Origin: Verrucomicrobiia bacterium
GTDB taxonomy: Bacteria > Verrucomicrobiota > Verrucomicrobiia > Limisphaerales > JADLHS01
Reading direction: 5' to 3'
Assembly: GCA_011525685.1 (NCBI GenBank)
Contig: WYBW01000168.1
Coordinates: 25,859-89,858 of the forward strand
Length of the DNA: 64,000 nt
Shown: piece by piece, positions 2,471-48,035 of the stretch
Position numbering within the stretch: the stretch's first letter is position 1
How the letters are laid out: each line of letters opens with the position of its first letter
Made by a program: the position numbers and the translations under genes
Notes under the pieces: generated by a model
Database searches by the model: none
Seen by the model: the letters and a program-made list of their open reading frames with translations, nothing else
Told to the model about the DNA's origin: nothing

Positions 2471-2484
2471 CCGCCAAGGATTTT

Positions 2485-4185
2485 ATGCAACCAAAGTCAT
2501 TCAACATTCTCTCCCGCCGGGCCTTTCTGAGCCAGTCGTTCAAAACCAGCATGGCCATCGCCCTGGCCACGCTCACCGACATTCCCCTGGTCATGAAACG
2601 CGCGCTGGCCGAGGGCAGCATCGGCCTGAACGGCAAGAAAATCCTGTTCATCTGGCTGCGCGGCGCCAACGACGGCCTGAACTCCGTCATCCCCATTCAG
2701 GACTACGCCTACACCGACCCCGGCGTGGCGCTGCGTCCGGGCATCGGAATTCAAAAGGAAGCCTCGGTGGATTACAGCGCGCGCGGGAGTTGCTTCGACC
2801 CCACACAATTCTCTTCGGCCGCGACCATGGCCCCGCGCACGGCATCGGAGAACACCTATAGTTACGACCGTGCCATCCGATTAGGCAATGGCTTTGCCGC
2901 GTTGCACCCCTCGCTCAAGTTTCTCGCCCCGATTTACAACGCCGGCGATCTCGCGTTGATCCATCGGGTGGCCTATCCCCGCCAGTCCCGCTCGCACTTC
3001 GATTCGCAGAACTATTGGGAGAACGGCAACCCCAACAACAACCTTTCCAAGGACGGCATTTTCTACCGCGCGATCATCGAGTCCGGCCTGGCCAACACTT
3101 CGCCGCTGACCGGCATCTCGATTCAGTCCTCCCTGCCGCTCATCTTGCGCGGCTCGGCCGCCGCCATGACGAATCTCACCAGTCCCACGCGCTACGACCT
3201 GCTCGGTGTCCCGACGCCCGCCGGCGACGCCAAGGCCTTCAATTCCATCATCGGCGCGAACTATCATCCGTTCCCGGCCAAGCGCAGCCGCGACCTGCTC
3301 GAACTGCAATACCAGAACATGTCCAACACGCTGCGCATCTTTGCCGACATTGATTTCTCGGATGCCGGCAACACGTTCCGTGACAACGTGAACACTGACG
3401 GCGACAGCGCCCCCTACTATCTGTTCCCGGACAGCAACGCCAAGAACGGCGGCTACGCCTTCAACGGTAACAACGTGAACAAATACGTTGTCCCCACCAG
3501 CCAATACGGCTTCTTCCGCAATCTCAAGGCCGCCGCCATGATCCTGAACAAAACCGATGCCATCATCGCGGGCACGGAGTTCGGCGGTTTCGACACCCAC
3601 CAGAACCAGGGCGGAGCGACCGGCCAGCACGCCAACCTCCAACGCGTGATCGGCTGGTCCATGTACGCCCTGCGCAAGTACTTCACCGCTTACGCGGACA
3701 AAGCCACCTGGGAAAACACCATCGTCGTCACGCTCTCCGAATTCGGTCGCACTTCGCGTGAGAATTCTGACGCGGGCACCGACCACGCCGAAGGGGCCGT
3801 CATGTTCGTGGCAGGCGGCGGCCTCAAAGGCTATGGCAAGGGCAATGCCTATGGGGTTTTCGGTTGCAGCGACGACCCGCTCATCGAGCCGATCCCTTGG
3901 AAAAGCGGACCGCGCACCACCAGCGCCGCCACCTGCGGCACCATGTTTGCCGCCGGCTTTCGCGAAAGCGCCACCACGGTGAACCCGACTTCGGCCGGTT
4001 ACTTGCGGCGTTCCTTTGATTACCGGTCGGTGCTGGGCGAGATCATCCGCAAGCACCTCGGCGCCACGCAAAACCAGTTGAACCGGATCATCCCGGCATA
4101 CGCCAACCCGGCCGAGTGTCTGCTCACGGGCGGGGTTTCGAGCGTTGACGAAGTCCTCATTCGCGGAGAACCCGGCATCCTGTAA
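2485..4185 (+). CDS. DUF1501 domain protein (sulfatase/alkaline-phosphatase-like), Tat signal
   Basis: ATG at 2485 is in frame with ORF 2101..4185 (the upstream part overlaps the previous gene and is unlikely to be translated). N-terminus MQPKSFNILSRRAFLSQS is twin-arginine-like. Hallmark DUF1501 motif TLSEFGRTSRENSDAGTDHAEGAVMFVAGGGLKG present. Confidence 0.85.
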   Translation: MQPKSFNILSRRAFLSQSFKTSMAIALATLTDIPLVMKRALAEGSIGLNGKKILFIWLRGANDGLNSVIPIQDYAYTDPGVALRPGIGIQKEASVDYSARGSCFDPTQFSSAATMAPRTASENTYSYDRAIRLGNGFAALHPSLKFLAPIYNAGDLALIHRVAYPRQSRSHFDSQNYWENGNPNNNLSKDGIFYRAIIESGLANTSPLTGISIQSSLPLILRGSAAAMTNLTSPTRYDLLGVPTPAGDAKAFNSIIGANYHPFPAKRSRDLLELQYQNMSNTLRIFADIDFSDAGNTFRDNVNTDGDSAPYYLFPDSNAKNGGYAFNGNNVNKYVVPTSQYGFFRNLKAAAMILNKTDAIIAGTEFGGFDTHQNQGGATGQHANLQRVIGWSMYALRKYFTAYADKATWENTIVVTLSEFGRTSRENSDAGTDHAEGAVMFVAGGGLKGYGKGNAYGVFGCSDDPLIEPIPWKSGPRTTSAATCGTMFAAGFRESATTVNPTSAGYLRRSFDYRSVLGEIIRKHLGATQNQLNRIIPAYANPAECLLTGGVSSVDEVLIRGEPGIL

Positions 4186-4239
4186 GCCTTGCCAATCTCC
4201 TCCAGAACTGGCCTCGGTGAATCGCCCTGTTTGGGCGGT

Positions 4240-5154
4240 GTGCTCAAAGTCATCTTGCTGGCAATCGGCCTTGGTGCGCTCCGGGCCGTCGCGGCCTCCG
4301 TTACGAACGTCCCTTCAGCCGACACCTCCCTCATCGAGATCGCGCCCACCAACAACAACGGCGCCCAGGCCTGGTTTCTGGCCGGCAAGATCCAGAACGA
4401 CCGTTACAAGAACCGCGCCCTCATCAAGTTCGACTTCACCAATCTGCCCACCAACGCGCTCATTGAGTCGGTCGCGCTCAATGTCGAAGTCACGCGCGTG
4501 CCGGATGAACCGCCAGTGAACTCGACTTTTGGACTGCGCCGGATGTTGCGTCCCTGGGGTGAAGGCTACAAAGCGGCCAATCCTTTTGCCATCCCGCCCG
4601 AGCCGCCGGGCCAGGGCCGTCCGGCGACCGCGGGCGAGGCCACCTGGTTGTGCGCGTTCTTCCCCACCAACGAATGGTCGGCGCCGGGCGGTGCCGAGGG
4701 CGTGGACTTCTCCGCTGTGGAAAGCTCTTTTGAATTTATCGGCGGCCTCGGTCCATACCGCTTCCCCTCCACTCCCGAATTGGTGACCGACGTCCAGGAC
4801 TGGATCCATGATCCCCAGGCCAATCACGGGTGGATGCTGCTCTCCAATGATGAGGTGACGATTCTGACGGCGCGCCGCTTCGCCTCACGCGAAGACCCGG
4901 ACGCGCACCCCACGTTGGAAATTGAATACACGGCTGTCCCGGTCATTGAAACCGCGCGACACGCCGACGACCAGTTCCACCTCACATTCACCGCCTGGCC
5001 GGGCCAGACCTGTGCGGTCGAATACCGCGACTCGCTTACCTTGGGTTCATGGCAAATTCTGACCAACTTGGAGACCGCGACAGTCCCGACGCGATACTCG
5101 ATCGCAGATCCGGCCGTGAACCCACAGCGATTCTACCGCGTTGTCAGTTTCTGA
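4240..5154 (+). CDS. Secreted hypothetical protein with DNRLRE-like domain and conserved RFYRVV C-terminal domain
   Basis: GTG at 4240 gives signal peptide VLKVILLAIGLGALRAVAAS (the ORF-track TTG at 4189 is less likely). Central region RALIKFDFTNLP..ALIESVALNVEV..LRPWGEG resembles the DNRLRE domain pattern. Last about 65 aa (..HLTFTAWPGQTCAVEYRDSLTLGSWQILTNL...PQRFYRVVSF) match the C-terminal domain shared with three other proteins in this window. Confidence 0.65.
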   Translation: MLKVILLAIGLGALRAVAASVTNVPSADTSLIEIAPTNNNGAQAWFLAGKIQNDRYKNRALIKFDFTNLPTNALIESVALNVEVTRVPDEPPVNSTFGLRRMLRPWGEGYKAANPFAIPPEPPGQGRPATAGEATWLCAFFPTNEWSAPGGAEGVDFSAVESSFEFIGGLGPYRFPSTPELVTDVQDWIHDPQANHGWMLLSNDEVTILTARRFASREDPDAHPTLEIEYTAVPVIETARHADDQFHLTFTAWPGQTCAVEYRDSLTLGSWQILTNLETATVPTRYSIADPAVNPQRFYRVVSF

Positions 5155-5364
5155 CCCAGCCCGGAGTCTTCGTTCCCGGCTGGCCACGGCGCCGCCGTCA
5201 GCTTTCGCGTTGGCTGGGTCAGAATCCCTTGATCCACGCGGGCTTGCAGACGACATCTGACGCCAAATCTGCCGCCGCTCCAACAGTGGTTTCGTCCAAC
5301 CTCTCCAGTGGAATACGCGGCAAGGTCAATTCGAGATAGCGATGAGAATACTGCTAACAAAACA

Positions 5365-5400
5365 TTGACTTTTCCGTCAGTATGTAATAGAAACTACTAC
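5365..5400 (+). promoter_or_regulatory. Candidate promoter/operator: TTGACT-N13-GTAATAGAAACTACTAC upstream of the secreted Ig/CBM protein gene
   Basis: AT-rich island in an otherwise GC-rich region. Same architecture (TTGACA-N13-GTAGTAGAAGCTATTAC, inverted-core version) recurs upstream of the paralogous PEP-CTERM gene at about 12744..12779. Confidence 0.4.
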
Positions 5401-5405
5401 ACGTA

Positions 5406-7223
5406 ATGCCAATGCTGACAGAAAATAACTTAAGGCAACAGTCGCGCCCCATGAATCCGATTATGAAAACTCCACCGGCCAATCGTATGATCCCAAGCGC
5501 AGTGCCGCTCCAGCCAGGTTTCGTTTCTCAATCCTCCGTCAGAGTCCGGCGCAAACTGATGCTTTTGCCCGCGTTGTGCTTGGCCTTGATGGGCTTCGTG
5601 GCTGCAGGTTGGTCACAGATCACGGTAAAGGTGGATTCGACCAAAGCTTGGAGCGGCTGGATGAACTGGTTTGACACTAACGGCACTTACGTTGGTGGCA
5701 ATGCTTGGGGGACAAACGAGCTGCGCGCCAACTTCCAGCCGGACCTCGTGACGCCCACGCGTGTGGTGCTCCGGATCAATACGAATACCTACAATCCTGC
5801 CGATCCCTACTGGAATCAGCCGGACGGCACGCCCAACAAACTTCTCGAGGCAAACTTCTATGTGGACGTTGGCACCACTTTCGGCGGGAATGACGTGTTC
5901 TTCACGGGCACGGTGGAGTCAAACTCCCTCCCCGCAGGCTGGACGTGTGTGGCGATCATCAAGCAGTTTGGCAGCGGTTATGTTTTTCGAGGTGACTCGC
6001 GGGAGGACTTGTTTGATGGCACTCCCTTCACGGTGGCACGCTACATTCCACCGGGCGACATCTGCCAGTATGGATTCCTCCTCTATGGCCCGAACACCGC
6101 GCCGAATTCCCCGGCTGCCTTGGAAGGTGTCAGTGTGTTGGTGGACAACGCTGATCCTGGCATCATTACAGAACCGTCCGACCAGCGAGTGGTTTTTGGC
6201 GACACCGCAAGGTTTTCGGTGGTCGCTTCCGGCTCTTCCGCCCTGAGCTATCAGTGGCAACGCTATGACACCAATCTGGTAAACGGCGGCAGGTTCTCCG
6301 GCGCCACCAGCGCCACGCTCACCATCAACAACGCACAGGCTGAGGATGCGACGTCGTACAAGGTCACCGTGACCGGCACCGCCGGCGTCGTTGATTCCCG
6401 AGCGGCCCGCCTGCGGGTATTGACGCCGGCGCAGTTTGCCAACGCCCTGGACAATCCCAGCTTTGAATTGGACGTCGTCACGCCCACGACCGTGCCGGAA
6501 CCGTGGATCAACTTCAGCGGTTCAGGGCTGCAAAGCACCAACAACTTCTACGCCTGGCCGTCCGAGGACAATGTGCGAACCGTGGAGGGCACCAACGTGG
6601 TGCAAATTTACAACGCCGGGGAATGGAATGGAATTTTTCAGGATGTGCCGGCGTCTCCGGGCGAGATTTTCACGGGTGAGTGCTGGCTCTGGCAGTCGAG
6701 TTTCGATCCGCTGACCGCGCCGGTGAACGAGGCGTTTGTGGAGGTGCAGTTCCGCGCGGGCAACGACAATCCCATTGCCATCTACCATTCGCGCTATGTG
6801 ACGAACGCGCCCGAACTGCTGGACACGTGGCTGTTGCTGCAAGCAACCAATGGCGTGGCCGCCGGATACGCCCAAACGACCACCACGAATGCGCAATACC
6901 TGGTCGCGCCGCCGGGCACCGAGTTCGCGCGCTTTCAAGTCACCCTGCATTACCTGGGCGGCGGCTCGGGAAGCGTGTACGTGGACGCCGCGCGGCTCAT
7001 GAAGAAATTGCCGGTGACGGTGGACATCACGGTCAATGGCGGCCAGATCCAACTGGCCTGGTTGTCGCAGGGCGACACCGATTATCAAGTGGTTTACAAG
7101 GATGATCTGAACAGTCCCACTTGGACACCGCTGGGCGGTTTGATCCGGGGTGATGGTTCGGTGAAATCGGTTTTGTACGCTCCCACGGATGCCCGGCGTT
7201 ACTACCAGGTGTTGACGAGGTAA
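5406..7223 (+). CDS. Secreted multi-domain protein: N-terminal domain shared with the PEP-CTERM paralog, Ig-like domain, CBM4/9-like domain, RFYRVV-type C-terminal domain
   Basis: ORF 5406..7223; an alternative ATG at 5451 (MNPIMK..) is also possible. Hydrophobic signal/anchor LMLLPALCLALMGFVAAGWSQ. Residues after it (ITVKVDSTKAWSGWMNWF..LLEANFYVD..VFFTGTVESNSL..VAIIKQFG..QYGFLLYGPNT) align with the PEP-CTERM protein at 12848..13540. Ig-like segment (PGIITEPSDQRVVFGDTARFSVVASG..SYQWQR..ATSYKVTV). C-terminal QIQLAWLSQGDTDYQVVYKDDLNSPTWTPLG...RRYYQVLTR. Confidence 0.75.
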   Translation: MPMLTENNLRQQSRPMNPIMKTPPANRMIPSAVPLQPGFVSQSSVRVRRKLMLLPALCLALMGFVAAGWSQITVKVDSTKAWSGWMNWFDTNGTYVGGNAWGTNELRANFQPDLVTPTRVVLRINTNTYNPADPYWNQPDGTPNKLLEANFYVDVGTTFGGNDVFFTGTVESNSLPAGWTCVAIIKQFGSGYVFRGDSREDLFDGTPFTVARYIPPGDICQYGFLLYGPNTAPNSPAALEGVSVLVDNADPGIITEPSDQRVVFGDTARFSVVASGSSALSYQWQRYDTNLVNGGRFSGATSATLTINNAQAEDATSYKVTVTGTAGVVDSRAARLRVLTPAQFANALDNPSFELDVVTPTTVPEPWINFSGSGLQSTNNFYAWPSEDNVRTVEGTNVVQIYNAGEWNGIFQDVPASPGEIFTGECWLWQSSFDPLTAPVNEAFVEVQFRAGNDNPIAIYHSRYVTNAPELLDTWLLLQATNGVAAGYAQTTTTNAQYLVAPPGTEFARFQVTLHYLGGGSGSVYVDAARLMKKLPVTVDITVNGGQIQLAWLSQGDTDYQVVYKDDLNSPTWTPLGGLIRGDGSVKSVLYAPTDARRYYQVLTR

Positions 7224-7466
7224 CGCGCCTGAGTGGAGCGCCTCTCGTCCAAATCCCCGGCCATCCCACGACTGTTTGCCCCGGAGGCGGGCGTTATCGG
7301 CGAACAACCGACGACCACTCCGGAGGCGCTGGTGGCGGCACACCGGCCCGGCGCAGGAACGAAGCCAAAGTCTGGCAATCAACTCCGGGTGGACACGAAC
7401 TTCAAGCTGCGGGAGAATGATGCCAGGAGCGCGGGGACCTCACGCGACTCTGCTGGTGCGAACATT

Positions 7467-9083
7467 TTGAAACGACTTGGTCAACTTCTGATCATTCTGT
7501 GCCTGTGCGCTTTCGGGCTGCCAGGGGCATTGGCGCAGGAGCTTCCCGGTTGGAAACTGGTTTGGGCGGACGAGTTCGATCAGCCGGATGGCAGCTCCCC
7601 GGACGCCAGCAAGTGGGTTTTCGACATTGGCACGGGCAACAATGGCTGGGGCAACAACGAACTGCAGTACTACACGTCGCGAACGAACAATGCCCGCATC
7701 GAGGGTGGCCACCTCGTCATCGAGGCGCGCCAGGAAAGCTTTGGCGGACGCAACTACACTTCCGCCCGGCTCAAAACGCAGGGCAAGGCGTCCTGGACTT
7801 ATGGTCGCATGGAGGCACGCATCAAGCTCTCCCGCGGGAAAGGCATCTGGCCGGCGTTCTGGATGCTCGGCACGAATTTCACCTCGGTCGGCTGGCCCGC
7901 CTGCGGGGAAATTGACATCATGGAAAACATCGGTTCGGAAACCAACCGGGTGCATGGAACAATTCATGGACCGGGCTATTCGGGCGCCAATGGCATTGGC
8001 GGCAGTCTCCCGCTTCCCGGCGGCGCGGCCTACGCCGATGACTTCCACGTCTTCGCCGCCGAATGGGAAACCAACCGCATCCGGTGGTTCATGGACGATC
8101 AGCTTTTTTTCAGCGTTACCCCGGCGCGTCTGCCCGCCGGCAGTCAATGGGTGTTCACGCAGCCGCAGTTCATCCTGCTCAACCTGGCGGTGGGCGGCAA
8201 CTGGCCCGGAGCGCCGGATGCCTCGACCGTTTTTCCCCAACGCCTCACCGTGGATTATGTGCGGGTTTACGCCGCCACGAATACGAGCAAACCGGAGTCG
8301 CCGCCGGGTTGCGACGGCAACGCGCTGGTCAATCCCGGTTTCGAGGTTGGCGGACTGACGGGCTGGCAGACCTACGGAAACGGTTTCAACACCGTGATCC
8401 AACACGTCAGCAGCGCGCCGGTTCGCGGCGGCACGAATGTGTTCAAGGTGTTCGGACAGTTCACCGGCGGCGACAACTACTCGGGAATTTATCAGGACCT
8501 GCCAACCTCCCCCGGCACCAGCTACACGGCCCATGCCTGGGCTTGCACACCGGCAAATGACCGCATCGCCGGCGCCAATGCGGCGTGGATCGAAGTGACC
8601 TTCCGCGACGCGGGCTTGAACATCCTGAGCTTCTATCGCAGCGGGATTTTCAACGCCGACACGCCTGCGGAGGCCTGGCACAACCTCGCGGTGACCAACC
8701 GCATCAGTCCGGTCACCTATCAAGTCATCGGCTCGGTGACGAACCTCCCCGCCCCGGCGGGAGCAGAATGGGTCCGGTATCAGGTGGTGTTCCGACAACC
8801 GTCCGCCGCGGCGGGTGCCGTTTTGTTTGATGATTTGAACCTGTCGGTGCCGGTTGATCCGGAAGTGCCGATTCCGGCACTCGTAGCGCGCGATGACGAC
8901 CACCTTCGCATTTCGTTTCCCACCACTGCTGGTCTGGCGTACCAGGTCCGCTATCGGGAGGAACTGAACCTGGGCCAGTGGCTGGTGCTGACCAACGTGA
9001 CCGGCGATGGCACAACGCGAACGGTTGCGGATGCCTTGAGCGGTGACCGGCGTTTCTACCACGTCGTGCGCGTCTGCAATTGA
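7467..9083 (+). CDS. Glycoside hydrolase family 16 (laminarinase/beta-1,3-glucanase-like) with C-terminal CBM4/9-like and RFYRVV-type C-terminal domain
   Basis: TTG at 7467 gives signal peptide (M)KRLGQLLIILCLCAFGLPGALAQE; ORF track starts further upstream at 7233. GH16 signature WKLVWADEFD...GWGNNELQYYT and catalytic motif GEIDIMENIGSE. Then a CBM-like beta-sandwich (GFEVGGLTGWQTYGN..) and C-terminal HLRISFPTTAGLAYQVRYREELNLGQWLVLTNV...DRRFYHVVRVCN. Confidence 0.85.
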   Translation: MKRLGQLLIILCLCAFGLPGALAQELPGWKLVWADEFDQPDGSSPDASKWVFDIGTGNNGWGNNELQYYTSRTNNARIEGGHLVIEARQESFGGRNYTSARLKTQGKASWTYGRMEARIKLSRGKGIWPAFWMLGTNFTSVGWPACGEIDIMENIGSETNRVHGTIHGPGYSGANGIGGSLPLPGGAAYADDFHVFAAEWETNRIRWFMDDQLFFSVTPARLPAGSQWVFTQPQFILLNLAVGGNWPGAPDASTVFPQRLTVDYVRVYAATNTSKPESPPGCDGNALVNPGFEVGGLTGWQTYGNGFNTVIQHVSSAPVRGGTNVFKVFGQFTGGDNYSGIYQDLPTSPGTSYTAHAWACTPANDRIAGANAAWIEVTFRDAGLNILSFYRSGIFNADTPAEAWHNLAVTNRISPVTYQVIGSVTNLPAPAGAEWVRYQVVFRQPSAAAGAVLFDDLNLSVPVDPEVPIPALVARDDDHLRISFPTTAGLAYQVRYREELNLGQWLVLTNVTGDGTTRTVADALSGDRRFYHVVRVCN

Positions 9084-9282
9084 ATCCGTCAGTCTCCTGC
9101 CCGAGCGACCGCCATTTTACTGGCGATTCGAGAACGAGTTGACATCCTGCGACCGCGTGAGCTGCGACACGGAAAGGTCATCGAAACCGAGGCGCCTGGG
9201 CGCCGCCCGCGTCTCGGCCCGGATCAGCTTCCGCGCACCCGACCATCCGGACAGGTGGTCGCGGTTTGCTTCCTCGGACGGC

Positions 9283-12779: not shown

Positions 12780-12847
12780 ATCAAAGGCTGCGAGCTGGGT
12801 AAGGCTTGCCGTCGCAACCGGATAATACCGAACAACCATTGGCGATT

Positions 12848-13540
12848 ATGAAAACATTGCTCAAGAGCTACGCGGTTACATTGGTTACACTTTTCGTTCT
12901 TCTGGCTGCCAGAAACACGAGCCATTCCCAAGTTCAAGTGACCGTTGATCCCGGGGCGACTTGGCTGGGCTACATGAATGTCTTCGAACTCCCGATCAAC
13001 GGCGGAGGCTTTGTGTTTGGCAGCCCGTGGGGCACAGCGGATTTGGTCGCCACTTTCTCGGGAAGCACGCTTACACTGTCGCCAAACACCATCGGCGACC
13101 CTGATCCTTTCTGGTATATTGGCGGAGGCGGACCTGGCGCGCAGGGCAACAAGATCATGGAAGCCAACATGTACATCGAGAACACAGGCGGCTTGAACGG
13201 TCAGAATGTCACCTTCTCCGGCTTGGTTTCGGCCAACACTTTGGTCAGCCCGTACACCTCAATTGCGTTCATCAAGGACTTTGCGCCGGACTATTCCTCG
13301 TTCAACGTGATCACCGCCCCGCTGGTTGAAGGCGCATTCAGCATCAACCTGGATACGCTGGCCGACCCGACCCGCCATGTGCAGTACGGATTTACGACGG
13401 TCGGGCCCAATGTGTGGATTACGGACGTCGGTCCCTTGGGTGCGGTGCAGATCACGGCCATCCCCGAGCCTTCGATCCTGGCTTTGCTCGCGGTCGGTGT
13501 CGCCGGACTGCTGGTCCTGCGGCGCCAGCGCCGCGCCTGA
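12848..13540 (+). CDS. PEP-CTERM sorting domain protein (paralog of the N-terminal domain of the 5406..7223 protein)
   Basis: ATG 12848 gives MKTLLKSYAVTLVTLFVLLAA signal. C-terminus ..ITAIPEPSILALLAVGVAGLLVLRRQRRA is a canonical PEP-CTERM tag (PEP motif, TM helix, basic tail). N-terminal domain aligns with the 5406 protein. Confidence 0.85.
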   Translation: MKTLLKSYAVTLVTLFVLLAARNTSHSQVQVTVDPGATWLGYMNVFELPINGGGFVFGSPWGTADLVATFSGSTLTLSPNTIGDPDPFWYIGGGGPGAQGNKIMEANMYIENTGGLNGQNVTFSGLVSANTLVSPYTSIAFIKDFAPDYSSFNVITAPLVEGAFSINLDTLADPTRHVQYGFTTVGPNVWITDVGPLGAVQITAIPEPSILALLAVGVAGLLVLRRQRRA

Positions 13541-40883: not shown

Positions 40884-43800
40884 TCAGGGCAGAGCAACCA
40901 GCCGGTAAAAGCGTTGCGGCTGGCCGGTGAGATCGTCATCCACGATCAATTCCGGTCCCGCGGCTTCAACCGGCGATCCCAGCGGCAGCCAGACTGGGTC
41001 GCCTAGTTGGGTTTTGTATTCCACCTGGTAGGAGCGGCCTTGGACCACCGTGAAGGACAGTCGGACCGTGTTGTTGTCAATCAAGCTGACCGTGCCAATC
41101 GGCGGCAACATCTCAGTAATGACCCGGCCGGGGGTCGGCCAGTCCGCCTGCCAATTCACCGGGTCGTTGCCGTAGTCCGCGAGGATGAGGCGTTGGAGGG
41201 AGTGTCCCTGGCCATCAGCGGATGCGGGCCAGGGAACTTCGTCATCGTAGGCGACGCGCTCGACCAACAGGTAGGGGACGAAGCCTGCGTCCGGTCGTCC
41301 GGGCGCTTGGGGTCTGTCGGGCCGCCACAGTTCCAGGGTTTCACCGGCATTATCCAGCCGGCCGGTGTACGGGCCGACCACGGGTCCAGTGGCGTCGTAG
41401 CGCGCGCGAAAGGCGTCGAGCGCGGCCGGATCGGCCACCGGATCGAAAGGCACGACCAGCAGGCTTCCGCCCGCGGCGATGCTGGTGCCGGACGGAAAAT
41501 CAAATGTCACCGCGTTGGCCAGCCGCCAGACATTGGTCGGAAACGACGGATCGTACAACGGCACCGCCTCGCCGGAAAAGTTGTGCAGTTCGATGAATTC
41601 CTCGTTGCCGGTTTCGTTGGTGTCGGCGGGCGGATGATACATCAGTTCGCTGATCACGACCGGGCCGACCCGTGGATAGGCGTTGGTGGCGCCCGTGCCG
41701 GTGCGGAAATGCGCCAGACTCAGGGGATTCTCCACGCCGAAGGTGTGCCGGCTCATCGCGACAAAATCCACGCCCACACTGGTTTCGTGTCGGCCAAACG
41801 AAACCCCGTTGGCGGCGGCGTCAAAGGTCAAACCCACCCTGCCGCCGGTGAGATTCCCGGACGTGTCCGCCTCCGACAACCAGACTGCGTCGCCCTGCGC
41901 CGAGTTGAAGCTGAAAAGCGGCGGTTCGTCGGCCTCACCATCGGCGGAGCCGAATTGATACTGGTAAAACACCAGGAAGCCACCTGGCGGCAGCACCGTG
42001 CCATCCGGGATGCGGTAGCGCTTGAGGTCGGTTTGGCTGTCGCTCAAATACCAGCCGCCGAGGTGGACCGGCAGCGCGGTGGGATTGTGAAGTTCGACGG
42101 CGTCCTCCAAAAAGTTCGCGGCATCTGTATGACTCAGCACTTCATTGATGACCACTCCCGGGAGCGGGAGGTAATTTGCCGCTCCGGGTGAAGGGGTGGT
42201 GGTGAAGGAGACGATGGCCGACGCGCCGTCCGGCAACCGGCCGCTGGAGACGCCGTCGGCCTGAATGCCAAAATCCACCGCGTCAATCAGGTTGCGGTTC
42301 GCGTCGTAGAGCCGCAAAGTTTCGCCGGCTTTGTCCAGCGCGAACGCGACGTGATCCCGTCCCGCGGCGAGATTGCCATCCGCCTTGAACAGCACCCAGC
42401 GGCCTCCCCCGACAAAACTGAGGGCGGGAACAGGTGATTTCGTGATGCCGAAAGTGGACGGGTCATCGGTCAACAGCAACCCGCCCAACTCCACGGGCAA
42501 CGCGCTGGTGTTGTAAAGCTCGAACCAATCGTCGCCGCTGGCCGGGGCGGCCATCCACTCGTTGATCCGCAGCGCGGTTACCGGTCCCAAGGTGGCGGGA
42601 GTTGAGTTGGCCGCGCCGGGTGTGGGCGACGCCAGCAGTCGCCATTGGCCGCCGCTGCGGCCCAGCGAGAGGTTTTCCACCTGGAAACCGTAGCTGACCG
42701 AGTTCACGGGCTGGCCGAGGCCGTTGAAGAAAATCACGTCGCCACTTTCACCGGAGAGATTGAAGCCGGTGTTGAGTCCCGGGCCGGCGACGCTCGTGGA
42801 GGGTGACCGCGAGCCATCGCACCAAATCACCAGATACCCGCCGGCCGGAACGTTCACGCCCGCCGGGATCGTCCAGCGATCGCCGGCCGAGAGCGAACGG
42901 CCCAGCGCCATCCCGCCAAGGGCCACGGTGCCGCCGGTGCCGTTGTAAAGCTCCACAAAGTCCGCGTAGGTTCCCCACGGACTGACCACGGCGCGCTGGT
43001 TGCGGGCCAGCACTTCATTCAACACCGGCCCGTTGTAAGCGAGCACATAGTTGCTCGCGCCCGGACTCACGCTGCCGGTGAATGTGGCAAGGGTCGTCGC
43101 GCCATCCGGCAGCCGGCCCTCGGACACGGCTTGAGTCTGCGGGCCGTAGGTCACGCGCTCCAGTTCCGCCGCGGCTTCGCTGTAGAGCGCGATGGCGCCG
43201 CCCGCCGCCGGAAGCTTGAATTCCAACTGGTCCGCGCCGGGCAGTTCTTCCGCGAACAACTGCGCGTAGCCCCTTGGGGCCACAAAGGAGAGTGCGTTAT
43301 AGCGGAACAACGCATTGCTGCTGGCGAAGTACAAGCCGCGCAGGGCCACCGGCGCGATCGCGGAACGATTGAACAATTCCAGCCAGTCCTGACCGCCGGG
43401 CTCCGGGCTGGCGAGCCATTCGTTGAGGGCCAGTTGCGATGCTGCAGCCAGCGGCGCGGCGACGTTTTCCCCACCCGGGGTCGGCAGGGTGAGCCGCCAT
43501 TCACCGGTGTCGCGCCCCACCGAGTAATCGGTCAGTTGCAGGCCAAAGGTCAACGCGTCCACCCGGTTTGTGGCCGCGTCAAACAGGGAAACCGTTTCGC
43601 CCTTGCGGCCGAGGGCGAAACCCGCGTGCAGCCCGGGGGAATTCGTGGCGCTGTCGCACCAGACCACCAGGTAACCACCCGCCGCGAGGACGGTCTCGGC
43701 GGGAAACACGAACTTTCGCGGGTTGCTGTCGTCCGTCAGACTCCAATCAGCCAGGTTCACCGGAGCGGCGCCACGATTGTGCAATTCCACCCAGTCCGGC

Positions 43801-46800
43801 CACGCGCCGTCGTGAGGCACGCTGCCGCCGTTGTCGGCCATGACTTCGTTGAGCACCACCTCGCCCAACGCGGGGGCGAGTGGTGGCAGGCCGGGCGTGC
43901 CGTTGACGGTGACGCTGGCGCGCCAGTTGTCGGGGGCGTTGGGGTCGCCCCGAGCATCAATCACCTCCAGCGAAAACCCGTCGCCATCCGGCGCGGTGGG
44001 CCAGCCGTTCTCGTCGTCGTAATGAACCGCTGTCACCGTGCGGCCGTTGCCATCAAGGATGGCGATGCGCTCGCCGCCGTTGGCGAGATTGCCGGCGAAA
44101 TCGCCGAAGACCATGGCCGATGGATACCGCGCGGCGAACTGCGCCGGGCTGGAGTTGTTGGCCAGCAAGAGGACTGCGCCGGCTTGAAGGATCGTTCCAA
44201 TCGGGACAACAAAATTGATGCCTTGAAAGCTGAAACCGCCGATGTCCACTGGCAGAGCGCCCACGTTCTGGATTTCGAGGAACTCAAAGGCATCGCCGCC
44301 CAGCGGGTTGTACATGATCTCGGTGATGCGCAAGGGCACGCCCAGTTCGCCGACGGTGAAGGTGGCCTCATTGAGGGCGCTCCAGGTCGTGCCGTTGAGC
44401 ACGCGGGCTTTGAGCGTGACGGTGGTCCCCAGCACGAGCGGCGTCGAATACGTCAGCGCCGCGGCCGCCACTTCACCCGAGTAATACACGCGCGGGTCGC
44501 TGCCGTTGGTGGTGTAATAGATGACGCCCGCGCCGGGATTGCGCATGGCCACCACGTAGCCCGCGGCGACTGCGCCACTGGCGATGATTGGCCCCGCCAC
44601 CGTGCTCTGGCGATATTCCGGGGCGTCGAGGGGTGGATACAATCCAGCGCTGCGAAACTGATTGAGCACCGTGGTTCCCCGGGTGACGAAATAGGAGTTC
44701 ACCTTGCGCTGGTTTTCCGGCAGCCAATGGTCCTCCCGGGTGTAGAGTTGGAAGAGGCCCTCTTGGTACTGATGAACATCGCGCCGGTAATCGCCCCAGC
44801 GCAGGGACTCGGCCACAATGGGTTTGTCCATGATGGCCTGCCAGTAATCCCAGCGCACGGTGTTGGCCTGGCGGGTCAACGCGCCGTCCGGCGCGATCAT
44901 GTGCTTGTGAACGCGGTCGGCGAAGTCCAGTCGGAACTGCGCGTTATCATCGAGCTTGGTGAACAGGCCGCTGGGCACGTCGGTGCTGGTGACGCGATTG
45001 ATGTTGTCATTGAGCAGAATGCATTCGCCGTCCCACGGAAAATATCTGAACCGGCCCTCCGCGCCACTCACGCGCTTGCGGAGTGCGTACCAGTTCTTGC
45101 TATTGCCCCAATCCTGGTGCCCGGCGAAGTAATGGAGCAGCATGTAATCCGAGAATTCCGTCACATCCAGATACTGCTTCATCAATTCATAGTTTGCGTT
45201 GTTGTTCAGCCCGCTGATGCCCACCATGGCCTGGTAGGCTGTGGAGGTGCCGGAAGCAAGCCCGCCCTGGTCGTAAACGTCGTATTCCTCATCCGTGCCG
45301 CCGAAATAATTCGCGCCGAAATGTTTGGTCGGCTGCTCGGTGAAATCGTAGGTGCCCCAGTAAAGTCCGTTGATGAACAGGTGAAAGAAACGGTTGTGGC
45401 TGGCGATGTGTCCCATGTCCCGTTGCGCATGTTTGATCCAGGCATCGTGTGTGCGGGTGGCGCGGGTGCGCTGGAACGCGCCAAGGCCGTTGCTGGCGAC
45501 ATCCGACCAATGCCGCCAACTGGAGTTGAAGTCGGGCCGCAGAATCAGATCATCAAACTCGCGCGCGGGTGAATCCGGAAACAGCCGGTAGTCGAGCATG
45601 GATTCACCAAACTCCCCCCGGAAGTTGAGCTTGAAGCCGTGCTTGGGATTCTTGTTCGGCTCGCGGCTGGCGTTGCCGTGGGCGCGCAGGCCGCCGTTCA
45701 CCGCAAAGGCGGTCGTGCCGTCCGGGAGCAGCATTTCCACGGAGCAGGGCTGGTCCGGGAAGTTTTTGTTCACAATATTCGGCGTGTGGTAAAGGCCGGA
45801 GGGATTGAAGATGTGGTTCATGTCCATCACGATGGAAACCACCGGCAACTCGCGCAGACCATCGTGGTACCGTTGAAGTTTGGCGGGATCAATCGGCGAG
45901 TCGGGATTGTTCGGATCCGTGCGAAGCGGGTCCAGGTCCATTTCATAGTCCGCCGGAACGATGTTGTTGGTGAAAGTGGAGTAGGTGCCCCAGGAGGCCG
46001 GAAACCCCGGTGGATTGTTTGGCTGCGCGAGCACACTGTCCAGGTAGATGTAGCTGTGGGTCCGGGTGCGGGAGGGGAGGTAATTGGGAGCGAATACGGC
46101 GGCGCGAACGTAGGTGGTGTTGGTGATCTGGATCGGTGCCGAATAAACCAGGCCGTTGACCGTGGTTGGCTCGCTGCCGTCCCGGGTGTAGCGGATGGTG
46201 GCGTTGGACACCGGCGTGGTGAGCACCAGGTTGAACGGCGCGTCGAACAGGCCGCGAGCGACACTGAAGTGCGGCTCGGGCGCGATGCCGAGGATGGCGC
46301 TGTTGCCGTTGGCGGCCCCGGGCGTGGGCGAAATGTAATATCGCCAGACATTCGAGCTTTGCTGGCCGTAGGAGAAGTTGTTGCGTTGCTCGGGATACCG
46401 CGGCGCGAATTCGCTCACCGCCACCCGGGGCGATTCGGGATTGAACAAGGCGAGGTACTCGCCGAAGAGGTCGAGCCGGAAATTCGTGTGAAAGCGGTTG
46501 GTTCCGGCCGGCACTCGCCGGTCCTTGCCGGAGGCGAAGACGACGAGATACTGTCCGGGATTGAGGACGCGCGAGGGAAACGTCCAGAGGCCGGGCACGT
46601 TCGCATTGTCGGTCAGCGACCAGCCAAGCAGGTCCACCGGCGTCGTGCCGCGATTGTACAACTCGATCCAGTCCGGGCGCTCGCCATCCTCATCCAGCAA
46701 CCCGGACAGGTTGCCGGCCACGAACTCGTTGATCACGATGTCGCCGGGCACAAGGGCGGGGTTGAGGGTCACCGACCAGTTGCCGCCGCCGAAGGGGTTC

Positions 46801-48035
46801 GCGGCCAGATCGCTGATGCCGTGGCTCGCCGCCCAGCCAAAGGTCACCGTGCCGGAAGATGGTTGCGGGAATTGAAACAGGTAAGGCCCGGCCTCGGCGC
46901 CGGTCACGGTCGAGGCCGGCTGGCCGTTGATTTGCAAGTCGCCGGCGTCCACGCCGAAGACCGGTTCGTTGAACCAGACTTCCAACTGGGTCAGTTGACT
47001 GACTTGCGCCCCCGCCACGGGAGTCCGCTCGGAAACCTGCGGCGACAGGTTGTCCACGAGGGTGTAGCTCCAGGCGGCGCTGTGATCGAACGCCGCTCCT
47101 TGCAGGTCAGTGATTCCTGGTGACTCGCTCCACCGCACGTCCAACGGGCCGGGCGCGGGTTGGGTGAACGTGAACGTGTAACGGTTCGTCCCGGGATTTC
47201 CCGCCACCCCCGTGGCCGGCTGGTTGTTGAGGGTCAGATCGTCGGCATCAACGCCGGAGACCGGTTCGTCAAAGAACACCGTGACCTGCGCGAACGCGCC
47301 CAGCACCGAACCGGGCGCGGGGCTGATGTTGGTGACGGTGGGCGGGTTGAGGTTGGCTCGCAGGAACTCGACGCGCGTCTCAAATCGAAAATCGGAACTG
47401 GTCGAGAGGTTGTTGTTGAAGGCCTGCACGGCCAGGATGTTCGTGCCCGGGACGAGATAATCACCCGGCGCGAGGGCGACGGTGTGGGTGAGGGCGGGTT
47501 CCGCTTCGCGCGCGGCGGCGGCCACGCTGGTGTAAAGCGGGGAGGCCACATTAACATTGTCCCGCACCACCTCGGCGCCGTTGATCCAAGCCACGAAACC
47601 ATCGTCGCAATTCGCCACAAATTGGAGCGACTGAACTTCCTGGACATTTGTCACCACAAAGTGCGCGCGCAGGAAGATGCAGGTGTAATTGCTGCGCATG
47701 TCGCTCAACAGCGTGCCGCCGGAGAGTCCTTCGCCATAGTGAAACGGCGCTTTGCCGACGGACCAGGAGGCATCGTTGAACCCGGCGCCGCGCCAGAGGT
47801 TGTTGGGGTTGGACACCTCGTTGGTGCCCTTGCGCCAACGCCAACTGGCGCCGGTGGGGATGAGTGTCTCCTGCGCTCGCGCTGGGAAAACCCAATCCCC
47901 GCCCCCAAGCAGGAACAACAACACGCCCCCAAGCAATAGTCTCCAACTAATGGCTGGCCGGGGAGGACTCTGCCGCCGGCCCGCCGCGAGGCGTGCCAAC
48001 GCACCTTGATCTTGCTGCAAAAACTTGGACCGCAC
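40884..48035 (-). CDS. Giant (2383 aa) secreted CotH kinase-like domain protein with seven lamin-tail-domain (LTD) repeats and RFYRVV-type C-terminal domain
   Basis: Signal RLLLGGVLLFLLGGGDWVFPARAQE. CotH-like region (..LRAHGNASREPNKNPKHGFKLNFRGEFG.., ..MLLHYFAGHQDWGNSKNWYALRK..). Seven LTD repeats of pattern V(I/L)NE(F/V/W)...(W/F)(I/V)EL(Y/H)N...V.L.GW.L(T/S)D. C-terminal ..VRLSFTVVQGRSYQVEYKTQLGDPVWLPLG...PQRFYRLVALP. Confidence 0.85.
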   Translation of the reverse strand: MRSKFLQQDQGALARLAAGRRQSPPRPAISWRLLLGGVLLFLLGGGDWVFPARAQETLIPTGASWRWRKGTNEVSNPNNLWRGAGFNDASWSVGKAPFHYGEGLSGGTLLSDMRSNYTCIFLRAHFVVTNVQEVQSLQFVANCDDGFVAWINGAEVVRDNVNVASPLYTSVAAAAREAEPALTHTVALAPGDYLVPGTNILAVQAFNNNLSTSSDFRFETRVEFLRANLNPPTVTNISPAPGSVLGAFAQVTVFFDEPVSGVDADDLTLNNQPATGVAGNPGTNRYTFTFTQPAPGPLDVRWSESPGITDLQGAAFDHSAAWSYTLVDNLSPQVSERTPVAGAQVSQLTQLEVWFNEPVFGVDAGDLQINGQPASTVTGAEAGPYLFQFPQPSSGTVTFGWAASHGISDLAANPFGGGNWSVTLNPALVPGDIVINEFVAGNLSGLLDEDGERPDWIELYNRGTTPVDLLGWSLTDNANVPGLWTFPSRVLNPGQYLVVFASGKDRRVPAGTNRFHTNFRLDLFGEYLALFNPESPRVAVSEFAPRYPEQRNNFSYGQQSSNVWRYYISPTPGAANGNSAILGIAPEPHFSVARGLFDAPFNLVLTTPVSNATIRYTRDGSEPTTVNGLVYSAPIQITNTTYVRAAVFAPNYLPSRTRTHSYIYLDSVLAQPNNPPGFPASWGTYSTFTNNIVPADYEMDLDPLRTDPNNPDSPIDPAKLQRYHDGLRELPVVSIVMDMNHIFNPSGLYHTPNIVNKNFPDQPCSVEMLLPDGTTAFAVNGGLRAHGNASREPNKNPKHGFKLNFRGEFGESMLDYRLFPDSPAREFDDLILRPDFNSSWRHWSDVASNGLGAFQRTRATRTHDAWIKHAQRDMGHIASHNRFFHLFINGLYWGTYDFTEQPTKHFGANYFGGTDEEYDVYDQGGLASGTSTAYQAMVGISGLNNNANYELMKQYLDVTEFSDYMLLHYFAGHQDWGNSKNWYALRKRVSGAEGRFRYFPWDGECILLNDNINRVTSTDVPSGLFTKLDDNAQFRLDFADRVHKHMIAPDGALTRQANTVRWDYWQAIMDKPIVAESLRWGDYRRDVHQYQEGLFQLYTREDHWLPENQRKVNSYFVTRGTTVLNQFRSAGLYPPLDAPEYRQSTVAGPIIASGAVAAGYVVAMRNPGAGVIYYTTNGSDPRVYYSGEVAAAALTYSTPLVLGTTVTLKARVLNGTTWSALNEATFTVGELGVPLRITEIMYNPLGGDAFEFLEIQNVGALPVDIGGFSFQGINFVVPIGTILQAGAVLLLANNSSPAQFAARYPSAMVFGDFAGNLANGGERIAILDGNGRTVTAVHYDDENGWPTAPDGDGFSLEVIDARGDPNAPDNWRASVTVNGTPGLPPLAPALGEVVLNEVMADNGGSVPHDGAWPDWVELHNRGAAPVNLADWSLTDDSNPRKFVFPAETVLAAGGYLVVWCDSATNSPGLHAGFALGRKGETVSLFDAATNRVDALTFGLQLTDYSVGRDTGEWRLTLPTPGGENVAAPLAAASQLALNEWLASPEPGGQDWLELFNRSAIAPVALRGLYFASSNALFRYNALSFVAPRGYAQLFAEELPGADQLEFKLPAAGGAIALYSEAAAELERVTYGPQTQAVSEGRLPDGATTLATFTGSVSPGASNYVLAYNGPVLNEVLARNQRAVVSPWGTYADFVELYNGTGGTVALGGMALGRSLSAGDRWTIPAGVNVPAGGYLVIWCDGSRSPSTSVAGPGLNTGFNLSGESGDVIFFNGLGQPVNSVSYGFQVENLSLGRSGGQWRLLASPTPGAANSTPATLGPVTALRINEWMAAPASGDDWFELYNTSALPVELGGLLLTDDPSTFGITKSPVPALSFVGGGRWVLFKADGNLAAGRDHVAFALDKAGETLRLYDANRNLIDAVDFGIQADGVSSGRLPDGASAIVSFTTTPSPGAANYLPLPGVVINEVLSHTDAANFLEDAVELHNPTALPVHLGGWYLSDSQTDLKRYRIPDGTVLPPGGFLVFYQYQFGSADGEADEPPLFSFNSAQGDAVWLSEADTSGNLTGGRVGLTFDAAANGVSFGRHETSVGVDFVAMSRHTFGVENPLSLAHFRTGTGATNAYPRVGPVVISELMYHPPADTNETGNEEFIELHNFSGEAVPLYDPSFPTNVWRLANAVTFDFPSGTSIAAGGSLLVVPFDPVADPAALDAFRARYDATGPVVGPYTGRLDNAGETLELWRPDRPQAPGRPDAGFVPYLLVERVAYDDEVPWPASADGQGHSLQRLILADYGNDPVNWQADWPTPGRVITEMLPPIGTVSLIDNNTVRLSFTVVQGRSYQVEYKTQLGDPVWLPLGSPVEAAGPELIVDDDLTGQPQRFYRLVALP

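What the first reader, a model, noticed from the sequence alone, without database searches (positions are those of the whole stretch)
4957..9083. Shared about 70-aa C-terminal domain ending in RFYRVV in four secreted proteins - candidate novel sorting/anchoring domain
Four secreted proteins in this window terminate with the same module. The carriers are the DNRLRE-like protein (..HLTFTAWPGQTCAVEYRDSLTLGSWQILTNL...PQRFYRVVSF), the Ig/CBM protein (..QIQLAWLSQGDTDYQVVYKDDLNSPTWTPLG...RRYYQVLTR) and the GH16 enzyme (..HLRISFPTTAGLAYQVRYREELNLGQWLVLTNV...DRRFYHVVRVCN). The 2383-aa CotH-LTD protein at 40884..41090 also ends this way (..VRLSFTVVQGRSYQVEYKTQLGDPVWLPLG...PQRFYRLVALP).

The shared consensus is h.L.F....G..Y.VEYK..L...W..L............RFYRVV followed by only 1-3 residues.

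Its position is strictly C-terminal, and its hosts are unrelated catalytic and binding domains. A paralog of the Ig/CBM protein's N-terminal domain carries a PEP-CTERM tag instead. This pattern is what is expected of a secretion, sorting or cell-surface attachment domain, analogous to T9SS CTDs or PEP-CTERM.
Basis: seen in the sequence. Interest (0 to 1): 0.7.

Follow-up and report, generated by a model that had tools for sequence, protein, structure and literature searches.

The report
Uncatalogued C-terminal FN3-like domain, Verrucomicrobia
Four unrelated exported proteins in this window end in the same ~72-residue beta-sandwich module. It belongs to a very large, mostly verrucomicrobial family that matches no Pfam or NCBIfam model and almost always sits at the very end of the protein, which suggests a surface-anchoring or sorting role that has not been shown.

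Summary
Four proteins end in one homologous ~72-aa module: DNRLRE, Ig/CBM, GH16/CBM and a 2383-aa CotH-LTD protein. Leave-one-out HMMs recover each left-out copy at E 3e-9 to 5e-15, and no other window ORF scores better than E 0.2.

- **Catalogue status:** No Pfam, NCBIfam or PDB sequence family covers the module.
- **Family size:** A profile finds 13,993 cluster representatives among 1.84 billion proteins.
- **Position:** In a sample chosen by a DNA pattern that ignores stop codons, 76 of 81 ORFs end within 5 residues of the domain, and 80 of 81 carry one copy.
- **Taxa:** About 57 of 71 positive loci are Verrucomicrobiota.
- **Carriers:** They are enriched for signal-peptide-like N-termini and carry unrelated extracellular domains.
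- **Anchor swap:** The N-domain of one carrier normally ends in PEP-CTERM.
- **Tandem arrays:** Arrays of 2-9 copies exist. They almost always reach the C-terminus, and internal copies keep RFYRV.

No partner machinery was found. A surface-retention or sorting role is the best inference but is unproven.

The parts
4189..5154 (+). Carrier 1: exported DNRLRE-domain protein (321 aa) ending in the module
   Evidence: NCBIfam NF033679 3.3e-15. The hydrophobic N-terminus VLKVILLAIGLGALRAVAASV was read directly.
4927..5151 (+). C-terminal module, copy 1 (75 aa, ...NPQRFYRVVSF, then the stop codon)
   Evidence: Translation. Leave-one-out HMM E 2.6e-11. AlphaFold pLDDT 90, all-beta.
5406..7223 (+). Carrier 2: exported protein (start codon uncertain). 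Order of domains: N-domain, I-set Ig, CBM_4_9-like, module.
   Evidence: Pfam I-set 7.9e-11. The N-domain is homologous to the PEP-CTERM protein. The CBM-like + module cassette is shared with carrier 3.
7002..7220 (+). C-terminal module, copy 2 (73 aa, ...ARRYYQVLTR, then the stop codon)
   Evidence: Translation. Leave-one-out HMM E 3.2e-9.
7233..9083 (+). Carrier 3: GH16 glycoside hydrolase + CBM_4_9 + module. The true start is probably downstream, because the signal-like segment LGQLLIILCLCAFGLPGALAQE lies about 80 aa into the ORF.
   Evidence: Pfam Glyco_hydro_16 1.1e-25 and CBM_4_9 3.7e-6.
8856..9080 (+). C-terminal module, copy 3 (75 aa, ...DRRFYHVVRVCN, then the stop codon)
   Evidence: Translation. 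Leave-one-out HMM E 4.9e-15.
40884..48035 (-). Carrier 4: 2383-aa exported CotH / Lamin-Tail-Domain (LTD) repeat protein ending in the module
   Evidence: Pfam LTD 6e-105 (8 stretches), CotH 9e-9, Fn3_assoc and CHB_HEX_C_1. Sequence.
40887..41114 (-). C-terminal module, copy 4 (76 aa, ...QPQRFYRLVALP, then the stop codon)
   Evidence: Translation. Leave-one-out HMM E 1e-10.
12806..13540 (+). Comparator: paralogue of carrier 2's N-domain that ends in a PEP-CTERM anchor instead of the module
   Evidence: PF07589 5.6e-6. BLASTP E 1e-20 to carrier 2. Among the family's top 120 homologues, 114 have a PEP-CTERM-like tail by regex.

Best explanation
The module is an autonomous, divergent FN3-superfamily beta-sandwich of about 72 aa. 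It appears to have six strands, and RFYRV is its last (F) strand. It has been recruited, mainly in Verrucomicrobiota, as the terminal module of Sec-exported extracellular proteins.

The most likely role is non-covalent retention or targeting of these proteins at the cell surface, by binding an envelope component such as a surface glycan or outer-membrane protein. That would make it functionally comparable to C-terminal anchoring modules such as SLH or cell-wall-binding repeats. It would also occupy the same architectural slot that PEP-CTERM occupies in the same genome.

**Shown:** the domain, its fold class, the family size, the taxonomic range, the extreme C-terminal placement, the exported and diverse carriers, and the tandem arrays.

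**Inferred:** the anchoring or targeting role and the nature of the ligand.
For: 1. **Homology and catalogue status.** The four copies are homologous. Neither they nor 66 diverse members match any Pfam or NCBIfam model.
3. **Family size.** 13,993 representatives at E <= 1e-3 and 1,039 at <= 1e-10.
4. **Position.**
   - A DNA pattern for PQRFYRV, blind to stop codons, gave 71 HMM-confirmed loci.
   - 76 of 81 ORFs stop within 5 aa of the domain, and 80 of 81 have a single copy.
   - 100 of 100 short hits end within 5 aa of it.
   - 141 of 149 top-scoring proteins do too; 5 of the 8 exceptions are partial cross-hits lacking RFYRV.
5. **Carriers.**
   - They hold LTD, CotH, Ig, LamG, Kelch, RCC1, CBM4_9, GH5, GH16, Amidase_3, cadherin-like and Calx-beta domains.
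   - They are enriched for signal-peptide-like N-termini: 24/33 against 58/183 neighbouring ORFs, p 2e-5.
6. **Anchor swap.** Carrier 2's N-domain family has 1,754 hits. Of its top 120, 114 end in a PEP-CTERM-like tail by regex, four more end in variant hydrophobic/basic tails, and none carries the module.
7. **Tandem arrays.**
   - Arrays of 2-9 copies sit at the C-terminus, mostly joined by short linkers (gaps mostly 0-18 aa).
   - Internal copies keep the conserved positions: R 0.77, F 0.77, R 0.84, W 1.0.
   - Variable copy number is typical of avidity-based binding modules.
8. **No membrane anchor.** The module has no transmembrane-like hydrophobic run. The signal regions of the four window carriers, as I read them, show no lipobox.
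Against: - No experiment or localisation data exist, and no literature was found.
- No ligand or partner was identified, and no non-carrier gene family recurs in more than 3 of 71 neighbourhoods.
- Net charge is neutral (mean +0.4 for terminal copies, -0.9 for internal copies). There is therefore no electrostatic hint of LPS binding.
- Most conserved positions coincide with FN3 core positions, so conservation alone does not reveal a binding site.
- The model's coordinates could not be inspected. The surface patch and the missing G strand rest on DSSP output and on strand-alternation reasoning.
- The PEP-CTERM swap evidence rests on one passenger family.
Confidence: 0.4

Rival explanations
1. 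It is a true secretion or sorting signal domain, a functional analogue of the T9SS C-terminal domain. A dedicated, still unknown outer-membrane translocon or sortase of Verrucomicrobiota would recognise it, and might cleave it or exchange it for a covalent anchor.
For: - One copy at the extreme C-terminus is the dominant architecture (80/81 and 76/81).
- There are many paralogues per genome: four in this 64-kb window, and several MAGs were hit twice even by a narrow pattern.
- The taxonomic range is restricted.
- Carriers are exported and functionally unrelated.
- The module sits at the position PEP-CTERM occupies in homologues of carrier 2's N-domain.
- Its size and beta-sandwich nature resemble T9SS CTDs (the T9SS comparison is from general knowledge).
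Against: - Tandem arrays of up to 9 copies exist, and internal copies are as well conserved as terminal ones. A pure signal needs only one terminal copy.
- No conserved cleavage motif was seen upstream, only a Pro-rich linker and a conserved Pro.
- No machinery was identified.
- There is no similarity to Por_Secre_tail models.
Confidence: 0.2
2. It is only a structural or substrate-binding FN3-like module, such as a spacer, a C-terminal cap or a carbohydrate-binding accessory. It would have no role in localisation, and its terminal position would reflect how it spreads by 3'-end domain accretion.
For: - The fold and the weak sequence signal are FN3-like. FN3-like modules are common accessories of bacterial glycoside hydrolases (general knowledge).
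- It forms arrays like other Ig/FN3 stalk domains.
- Two window carriers share a CBM + module cassette, consistent with cassette duplication.
- Several carriers are CAZymes or CBM proteins.
Against: - Spacers and CBMs are not confined to the last residues of proteins, whereas here 94-100% are terminal.
- Many carriers are not carbohydrate-active: CotH/LTD, Kelch, RCC1, Amidase_3, cadherin-like.
- Classical FN3 domains occur elsewhere in the same proteins as a separate family (P0004 residues 27-101).
- Profile-profile comparison with classical FN3 is not significant (probability 2.7%).
Confidence: 0.3
3. It is a C-terminal pro-domain or intramolecular chaperone, comparable to the pre-peptidase C-terminal (PPC) domains of secreted proteases. 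It would assist folding or passage through the type II secretion system and then be removed.
For: It has a C-terminal position on secreted proteins, sometimes in more than one copy. PPC domains behave this way (general knowledge).
Against: - Carriers are far more diverse than one enzyme class, and some reach thousands of residues.
- There are no PPC hits.
- Arrays of up to 9 copies are hard to explain as pro-domains.
Confidence: 0.05

Closest known systems
T9SS C-terminal sorting domain (Por_Secre_tail, PF18962 / TIGR04183) of Bacteroidota
   Same: It is a beta-sandwich of roughly 70-100 aa at the extreme C-terminus of Sec-exported, functionally unrelated proteins. It has many paralogues per genome, low pairwise identity and a lineage-restricted range.
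   Different: - No sequence match to the T9SS models.
- The hosts here are Verrucomicrobiota and Lentisphaerota. By general knowledge these phyla lack T9SS; this was not tested here.
- This module forms tandem arrays.
- Cleavage and attachment are unknown.
PEP-CTERM / exosortase sorting signal (PF07589)
   Same: It is C-terminal and occurs on exported surface proteins of the same organism. It occupies the equivalent position on homologues of carrier 2's N-domain.
   Different: PEP-CTERM is a tail of about 25 aa: a motif, a transmembrane helix and a basic cluster. This module is a folded 72-aa domain with no hydrophobic helix.
Fibronectin type III domain (PF00041) and FN3-like accessory modules of bacterial glycoside hydrolases
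   Same: - There is a weak sequence hit to neuroglian FN3 over strands A-E (E 8e-4).
- The B/C-strand motif (..W....G..Y.V.Y) is shared.
   Different: - No Pfam fn3 match (1 of 66 members at E 0.045).
- hhalign probability is 2.7% and Foldseek shows nothing below E 0.089.
- The module is shorter, about 72 aa against about 90, and appears to end after strand F.
- It has its own RFYRV signature.
- It is almost exclusively C-terminal.
Non-covalent surface-anchoring repeat modules (SLH domains, choline/cell-wall-binding repeats, GW modules)
   Same: They are terminal modules of variable copy number that tether unrelated enzymes and adhesins to the envelope.
   Different: The folds and sequences are unrelated. 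Those systems are characterised mainly in monoderms, with known wall-polymer ligands. No ligand is known here.

Membership tests
Pfam fn3 (PF00041) / FN3 superfamily | Match to the family HMM at or above the gathering threshold | tested here: not met
   The four window copies gave no fn3 hit at E <= 10. One of 66 diverse members matched at E 0.045, and Tissue_fac matched 4 of 66 with best E 0.0029. hhalign against a classical FN3 alignment gave probability 2.7%.
Pfam fn3 (PF00041) / FN3 superfamily | FN3-type beta-sandwich fold | tested here: met
   [not shown]
Pfam fn3 (PF00041) / FN3 superfamily | Seven strands, including a C-terminal G strand | tested here: inconclusive
   DSSP on the model shows five long strands plus short C' bridges, and the chain ends 1-4 residues after the RFYRV strand. 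The coordinates could not be inspected, so strand pairing is inferred.
T9SS C-terminal domain (PF18962 / TIGR04183 / TIGR04131) | Match to a T9SS CTD model | tested here: not met
   No such hit appeared in Pfam or NCBIfam, either for the four carriers or for 66 members.
T9SS C-terminal domain (PF18962 / TIGR04183 / TIGR04131) | Extreme C-terminal position on signal-peptide-bearing proteins of diverse function | tested here: met
   76/81, 100/100 and 141/149 are terminal. Signal-peptide-like N-termini: 24/33 against 58/183. Passengers are diverse.
T9SS C-terminal domain (PF18962 / TIGR04183 / TIGR04131) | Host genome encodes T9SS core components (SprA/Sov, PorV, PorU, PorK-N), and the CTD is cleaved | not tested
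   Only 64 kb of the source genome and 8-kb loci were available. None of the 15 window ORFs scanned showed such a domain. Cleavage cannot be tested computationally.
PEP-CTERM (PF07589) | PEP motif followed by a transmembrane helix and a basic tail | tested here: not met
   None of the four modules has a hydrophobic run of 8 or more residues. PF07589 hits only the paralogue at 12806-13540.
Non-covalent envelope-anchoring repeat modules (functional class) | Terminal location with variable tandem copy number on unrelated passengers | tested here: met
   Arrays have 1-9 copies and reach the C-terminus in 141/149 proteins, mostly with inter-copy gaps of 0-18 aa.
Non-covalent envelope-anchoring repeat modules (functional class) | Demonstrated binding to an envelope polymer or protein | not testable with these tools
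   This needs binding assays or fractionation.

The most novel reading that the evidence does not exclude
The module may be the recognition or attachment domain of an undescribed, Verrucomicrobiota-centred surface-sorting pathway, a many-to-one system comparable to T9SS-CTD or exosortase/PEP-CTERM. Its truncated FN3 fold has an exposed F-strand edge carrying the invariant R-F-Y-R. That edge could dock by beta-strand complementation onto a dedicated outer-membrane receptor, or onto array-bearing scaffold proteins. That arrangement would resemble a cohesin/dockerin system.
Probability: 0.2. Interest if true: 0.85.

Novelty: new variant of a known kind. Interest (0 to 1): 0.6.

Why it matters
Verrucomicrobiota are major polysaccharide degraders in soil, water and gut. 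How they export and display their large repertoires of enzymes and giant adhesin-like proteins is poorly understood. Here is a family of at least ~14,000 sequence clusters that matches no Pfam or NCBIfam model and marks the C-terminus of such proteins.

- **Practical use:** It gives a handle for predicting the surface or secreted proteome of these organisms, and a new HMM could be built directly.
- **Testable lead:** It may point to an unrecognised anchoring or sorting mechanism in a phylum outside the known range of T9SS.
- **Minimum value:** If it proves to be only a structural FN3 variant, the result is still a useful new domain definition.

Tried and rejected
- **The search for related loci on genome contigs:** I replaced it with a DNA pattern for PQRFYRV. 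That pattern favours GC-rich codon usage and exact-motif copies.
- **First word-indexed homologue search:** it found only 2 hits. The second returned only short fragments of 158 aa or less. These were useful for the structure alignment but not for architectures.
- **afdb50 fold search:** the library was unavailable.
- **Neighbourhood clustering:** across 71 loci, no non-carrier family recurred in more than 3 loci.
- **Net charge and hydrophobic-run analysis:** the module is neutral and has no transmembrane segment, so these give no mechanistic hint.
- **Terminal versus internal copy profiles:** they are essentially the same. The apparent differences at Q72 and R73 are inflated because 76 of the terminal copies were selected by the PQRFYRV pattern.
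- **Classical FN3 membership:** rejected on hhalign (probability 2.7%).
- **Five literature searches:** including the motif strings, they found nothing relevant.
- **Odd taxon labels:** checks for prepilin-like or PEP-CTERM ORFs in the oddly labelled loci were uninformative.
Full report
**1. The observation**

| Carrier | Gene (strand) | Length | Other domains | Module coordinates |
|---|---|---|---|---|
| 1 | 4189-5154 (+) | 321 aa | DNRLRE | 4927-5151 |
| 2 | 5406-7223 (+) | 605 aa | N-domain, I-set Ig, CBM_4_9-like | 7002-7220 |
| 3 | 7233-9083 (+) | 616 aa | GH16, CBM_4_9 | 8856-9080 |
| 4 | 40884-48035 (-) | 2383 aa | CotH, eight LTD stretches | 40887-41114 |

Sources for the table are. 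Each module runs straight into the stop codon.

The similarity is not a chance motif:
- Five of the six pairwise BLASTP comparisons give E 2e-13 to 4e-8. The copy 1 / copy 2 pair is weak (E 0.004 over 44 aa).
- HMMs built from any three copies recover the fourth at E 3e-9 to 5e-15.
- The next best six-frame ORF of the window scores E >= 0.27.
- There is no fifth copy.

One caveat applies. Carriers 2 and 3 share a longer CBM_4_9-like + module cassette (29% identity over 273 aa), so they are not fully independent examples.

**2. Is it a known domain?**

By sequence it is not in any library I could search.
- hmmscan of the four modules against Pfam at E <= 10 found nothing relevant.
- The full carriers show no hit over the module in NCBIfam at E <= 1.
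- Scanning 66 diverse family members individually gave only marginal hits. Tissue_fac matched 4 of 66 (best E 0.003), fn3 matched 1 of 66 (E 0.045), and NCBIfam gave nothing meaningful.
- A PDB sequence search with the four-sequence profile found nothing.

Structure and a richer profile place it near FN3.
- The 66-sequence profile gives a borderline hit to the first FN3 domain of Drosophila neuroglian. The hit has E 8e-4 and covers strands A-E only. FN3con and the C. thermocellum Fn3-like protein follow more weakly.
- AlphaFold2 on a 71-row alignment gave a confident all-beta model, with mean pLDDT 90 and pTM 0.73. Strands lie at 16-23, 26-33, 38-44, 65-72 and 79-84 of the 85-residue query.
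- Foldseek finds nothing below E 0.089 (best TM 0.64).
- hhalign against a small classical FN3 alignment is not significant (probability 2.7%).

My reading is that this is a divergent, shortened FN3-superfamily sandwich. RFYRV corresponds to the FN3 F strand (the 'Y.v.V' position), and there is no room for a G strand.

**3. Size and distribution of the family**

- The four-sequence profile, searched against 1.84 billion cluster representatives, found 13,993 proteins at E <= 1e-3 and 1,039 at E <= 1e-10.
- Some weak hits are ordinary FN3-like repeats. For example, P0024 and P0110 match only profile columns up to about 60 and lack RFYRV.
- I scanned one genome per species with a DNA pattern encoding PQRFYRV.
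- Seventy-one of those loci contain an HMM-confirmed module.
- By record title, about 57 of the 71 are Verrucomicrobiota: Pedosphaera/Limisphaerales (subdivision 3), Chthoniobacterales, Verrucomicrobiales and Opitutales.
- Two more are Lentisphaerota. The rest carry scattered or doubtful labels.
- Pattern matches in other phyla were HMM-negative, so they are chance hits.
- The window itself resembles a verrucomicrobial chromosome. It has DUF1800-like and DUF1501-like ORFs, a prepilin-type protein and a PEP-CTERM protein. This taxonomic reading is my own.
- Exact matches to its HemA exist only in two SRA-run assemblies.

**4. Positional bias, the key test**

Three samples agree.

- **Pattern-selected genomic sample.**
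  - The selection ignores what follows the motif.
  - 76 of 81 ORFs have the domain ending within 5 residues of the stop codon.
  - 80 of 81 have a single copy.
- **Short proteins retrieved with the 66-sequence profile.** All 100 end within 5 residues of the domain.
- **Top 150 representatives.**
  - 141 of 149 HMM-positive proteins have a terminal copy.
  - Of the 8 exceptions, 5 are partial FN3 cross-hits.
  - Only 3 (P0025, P0049, P0121) are genuine arrays followed by other sequence.

The module also occurs as tandem arrays of 2-9 copies, mostly joined by short linkers (gaps mostly 0-18 aa, often Pro-rich as far as I read them). There are 315 non-terminal copies in that list. Those arrays almost always run to the C-terminus. 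Internal copies keep the family signature: W 1.0, R 0.77, F 0.77, Y 0.60, R 0.84, V 0.68.

RFYRV is therefore the domain's own last strand rather than a tag that needs a free C-terminus. The '1-3 trailing residues' are simply the domain boundary.

**5. Carriers**

- Passenger domains include LTD, CotH, Ig/I-set, LamG, fn3, Kelch, RCC1, CBM_4_9, GH5, GH16, Amidase_3, cadherin-like, Calx-beta, MBG and DUF11.
- All four window carriers have a signal-peptide-like hydrophobic N-terminal segment with no lipobox. This I read from the sequences.
- With a crude heuristic, 24 of 33 5'-complete carriers have such a segment, against 58 of 183 other ORFs from the same loci (Fisher p 2e-5).
- The module itself has no hydrophobic helix and is about neutral in charge.

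**6. The PEP-CTERM alternation**

- The N-domain of carrier 2 is homologous to the protein at 12806-13540 (E 1e-20). That protein ends in a PEP-CTERM anchor.
- A profile of the two N-domains finds 1,754 homologues.
- Of the top 120, 114 have a PEP-CTERM-like tail by regex. Four more end in variant hydrophobic/basic tails by my reading, and none carries the module.
- Most of these are about 228 aa, that is N-domain plus tail.
- Carrier 2 is therefore a member of a normally PEP-CTERM-anchored family in which Ig, CBM and this module take the place of the anchor.
- This is one example, and it is suggestive rather than conclusive.

**7. Search for partners**

Clustering all other ORFs of at least 150 aa in the 71 positive loci found no family present in more than 3 loci. 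The window holds ordinary housekeeping and envelope genes around the carriers. This neither supports nor excludes a many-to-one sorting system, because such machineries are usually unlinked to their substrates.

**8. Interpretation**

The solid findings are these:
- a new, very large domain family of the FN3 superfamily;
- a range that is mostly Verrucomicrobiota;
- a position almost exclusively at the C-terminus of exported extracellular proteins;
- usually one copy, sometimes an array.

The function is inferred. I favour a non-covalent surface-retention or targeting module (confidence 0.4) for three reasons:
- The module occurs in variable-copy arrays.
- Internal copies keep the signature.
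- The module has no transmembrane segment or lipid anchor.

Together these resemble anchoring and binding modules more than cleaved signals.

The alternatives are:
- A dedicated T9SS-CTD-like signal (0.2).
- A purely structural or substrate-binding FN3 accessory (0.3). This one does not explain the positional exclusivity or the non-CAZyme carriers.
- A PPC-like pro-domain, which is unlikely (0.05).

**9. Novelty and verdict**

- I found no description in Pfam-A (copy with models to 2025) or NCBIfam release 20.
- PDB sequences and five full-text literature searches also gave nothing.
- C-terminal sorting and anchoring domains, and FN3-like modules, are both known kinds. This is a new variant whose mechanism is unknown.
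- The finding is real and worth following up.

Noticed in passing
window 12806-13540 (+): The N-terminal domain of this PEP-CTERM protein (about 190 aa) matches no Pfam model. It nevertheless belongs to a family of at least 1,754 proteins. Nearly all are about 228 aa (N-domain plus PEP-CTERM), and some are labelled Verrucomicrobia or Pirellulales. This is a second uncatalogued surface-protein family.
   Followed up: partly
window 6426-7220 and 8304-9080 (+): Carriers 2 and 3, which are adjacent genes, share a CBM_4_9-like domain plus the C-terminal module as one cassette (29% identity over 273 aa, E 1e-22). This suggests duplication of a two-domain 3' cassette.
   Followed up: yes
window 53-4185 (+), 9043-12445 (+): The three adjacent carrier genes are flanked upstream by an 805-aa ORF and a 694-aa ORF that I read as a DUF1800-like / DUF1501-like pair (not scanned). 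Downstream lies a PAS/HisKA_3 sensor kinase and what I read as a LuxR-type response regulator. The arrangement may be a regulated beta-glucan-utilisation cluster.
   Followed up: partly
window 34188-39983 (+), 30915-33086 (+): A 1931-aa protein with DUF3686 ('ATPase involved in DNA repair', E 4e-166), DUF7902 and AAA_5 domains lies close to a long coiled-coil ORF that looks flotillin-like. It is unrelated to the finding.
   Followed up: no
L012, L060, L074, L086, L091 (genome-contig loci): True copies of the module occur on MAG contigs labelled Bifidobacterium or Bifidobacteriaceae (TPA co-assembly bins, GC 55-63%). Single copies also occur on bins labelled Acidoferrum, Binatia, Methylomirabilota and Baltobacteraceae. 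The labels or the binning are probably wrong, but this was not verified.
   Followed up: partly
P0024, P0040, P0110, P0151 (representative hits): The profile partly matches (strands A-C' only, no RFYRV) long arrays of FN3-like repeats with Cys-containing motifs. At least two of these proteins look like Bacteroidota T9SS substrates by their C-terminal ends. Part of the 13,993-hit count is therefore cross-matching to ordinary FN3-like repeats.
   Followed up: partly
L021:139-7281 (+): A 2381-aa ORF in an uncultured Verrucomicrobiae MAG clusters with the window's 2383-aa CotH-LTD carrier and also ends in the module. LTD (9 of 66) and CotH (7 of 66) are among the most frequent passenger domains in the pattern-selected sample.
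   Followed up: partly
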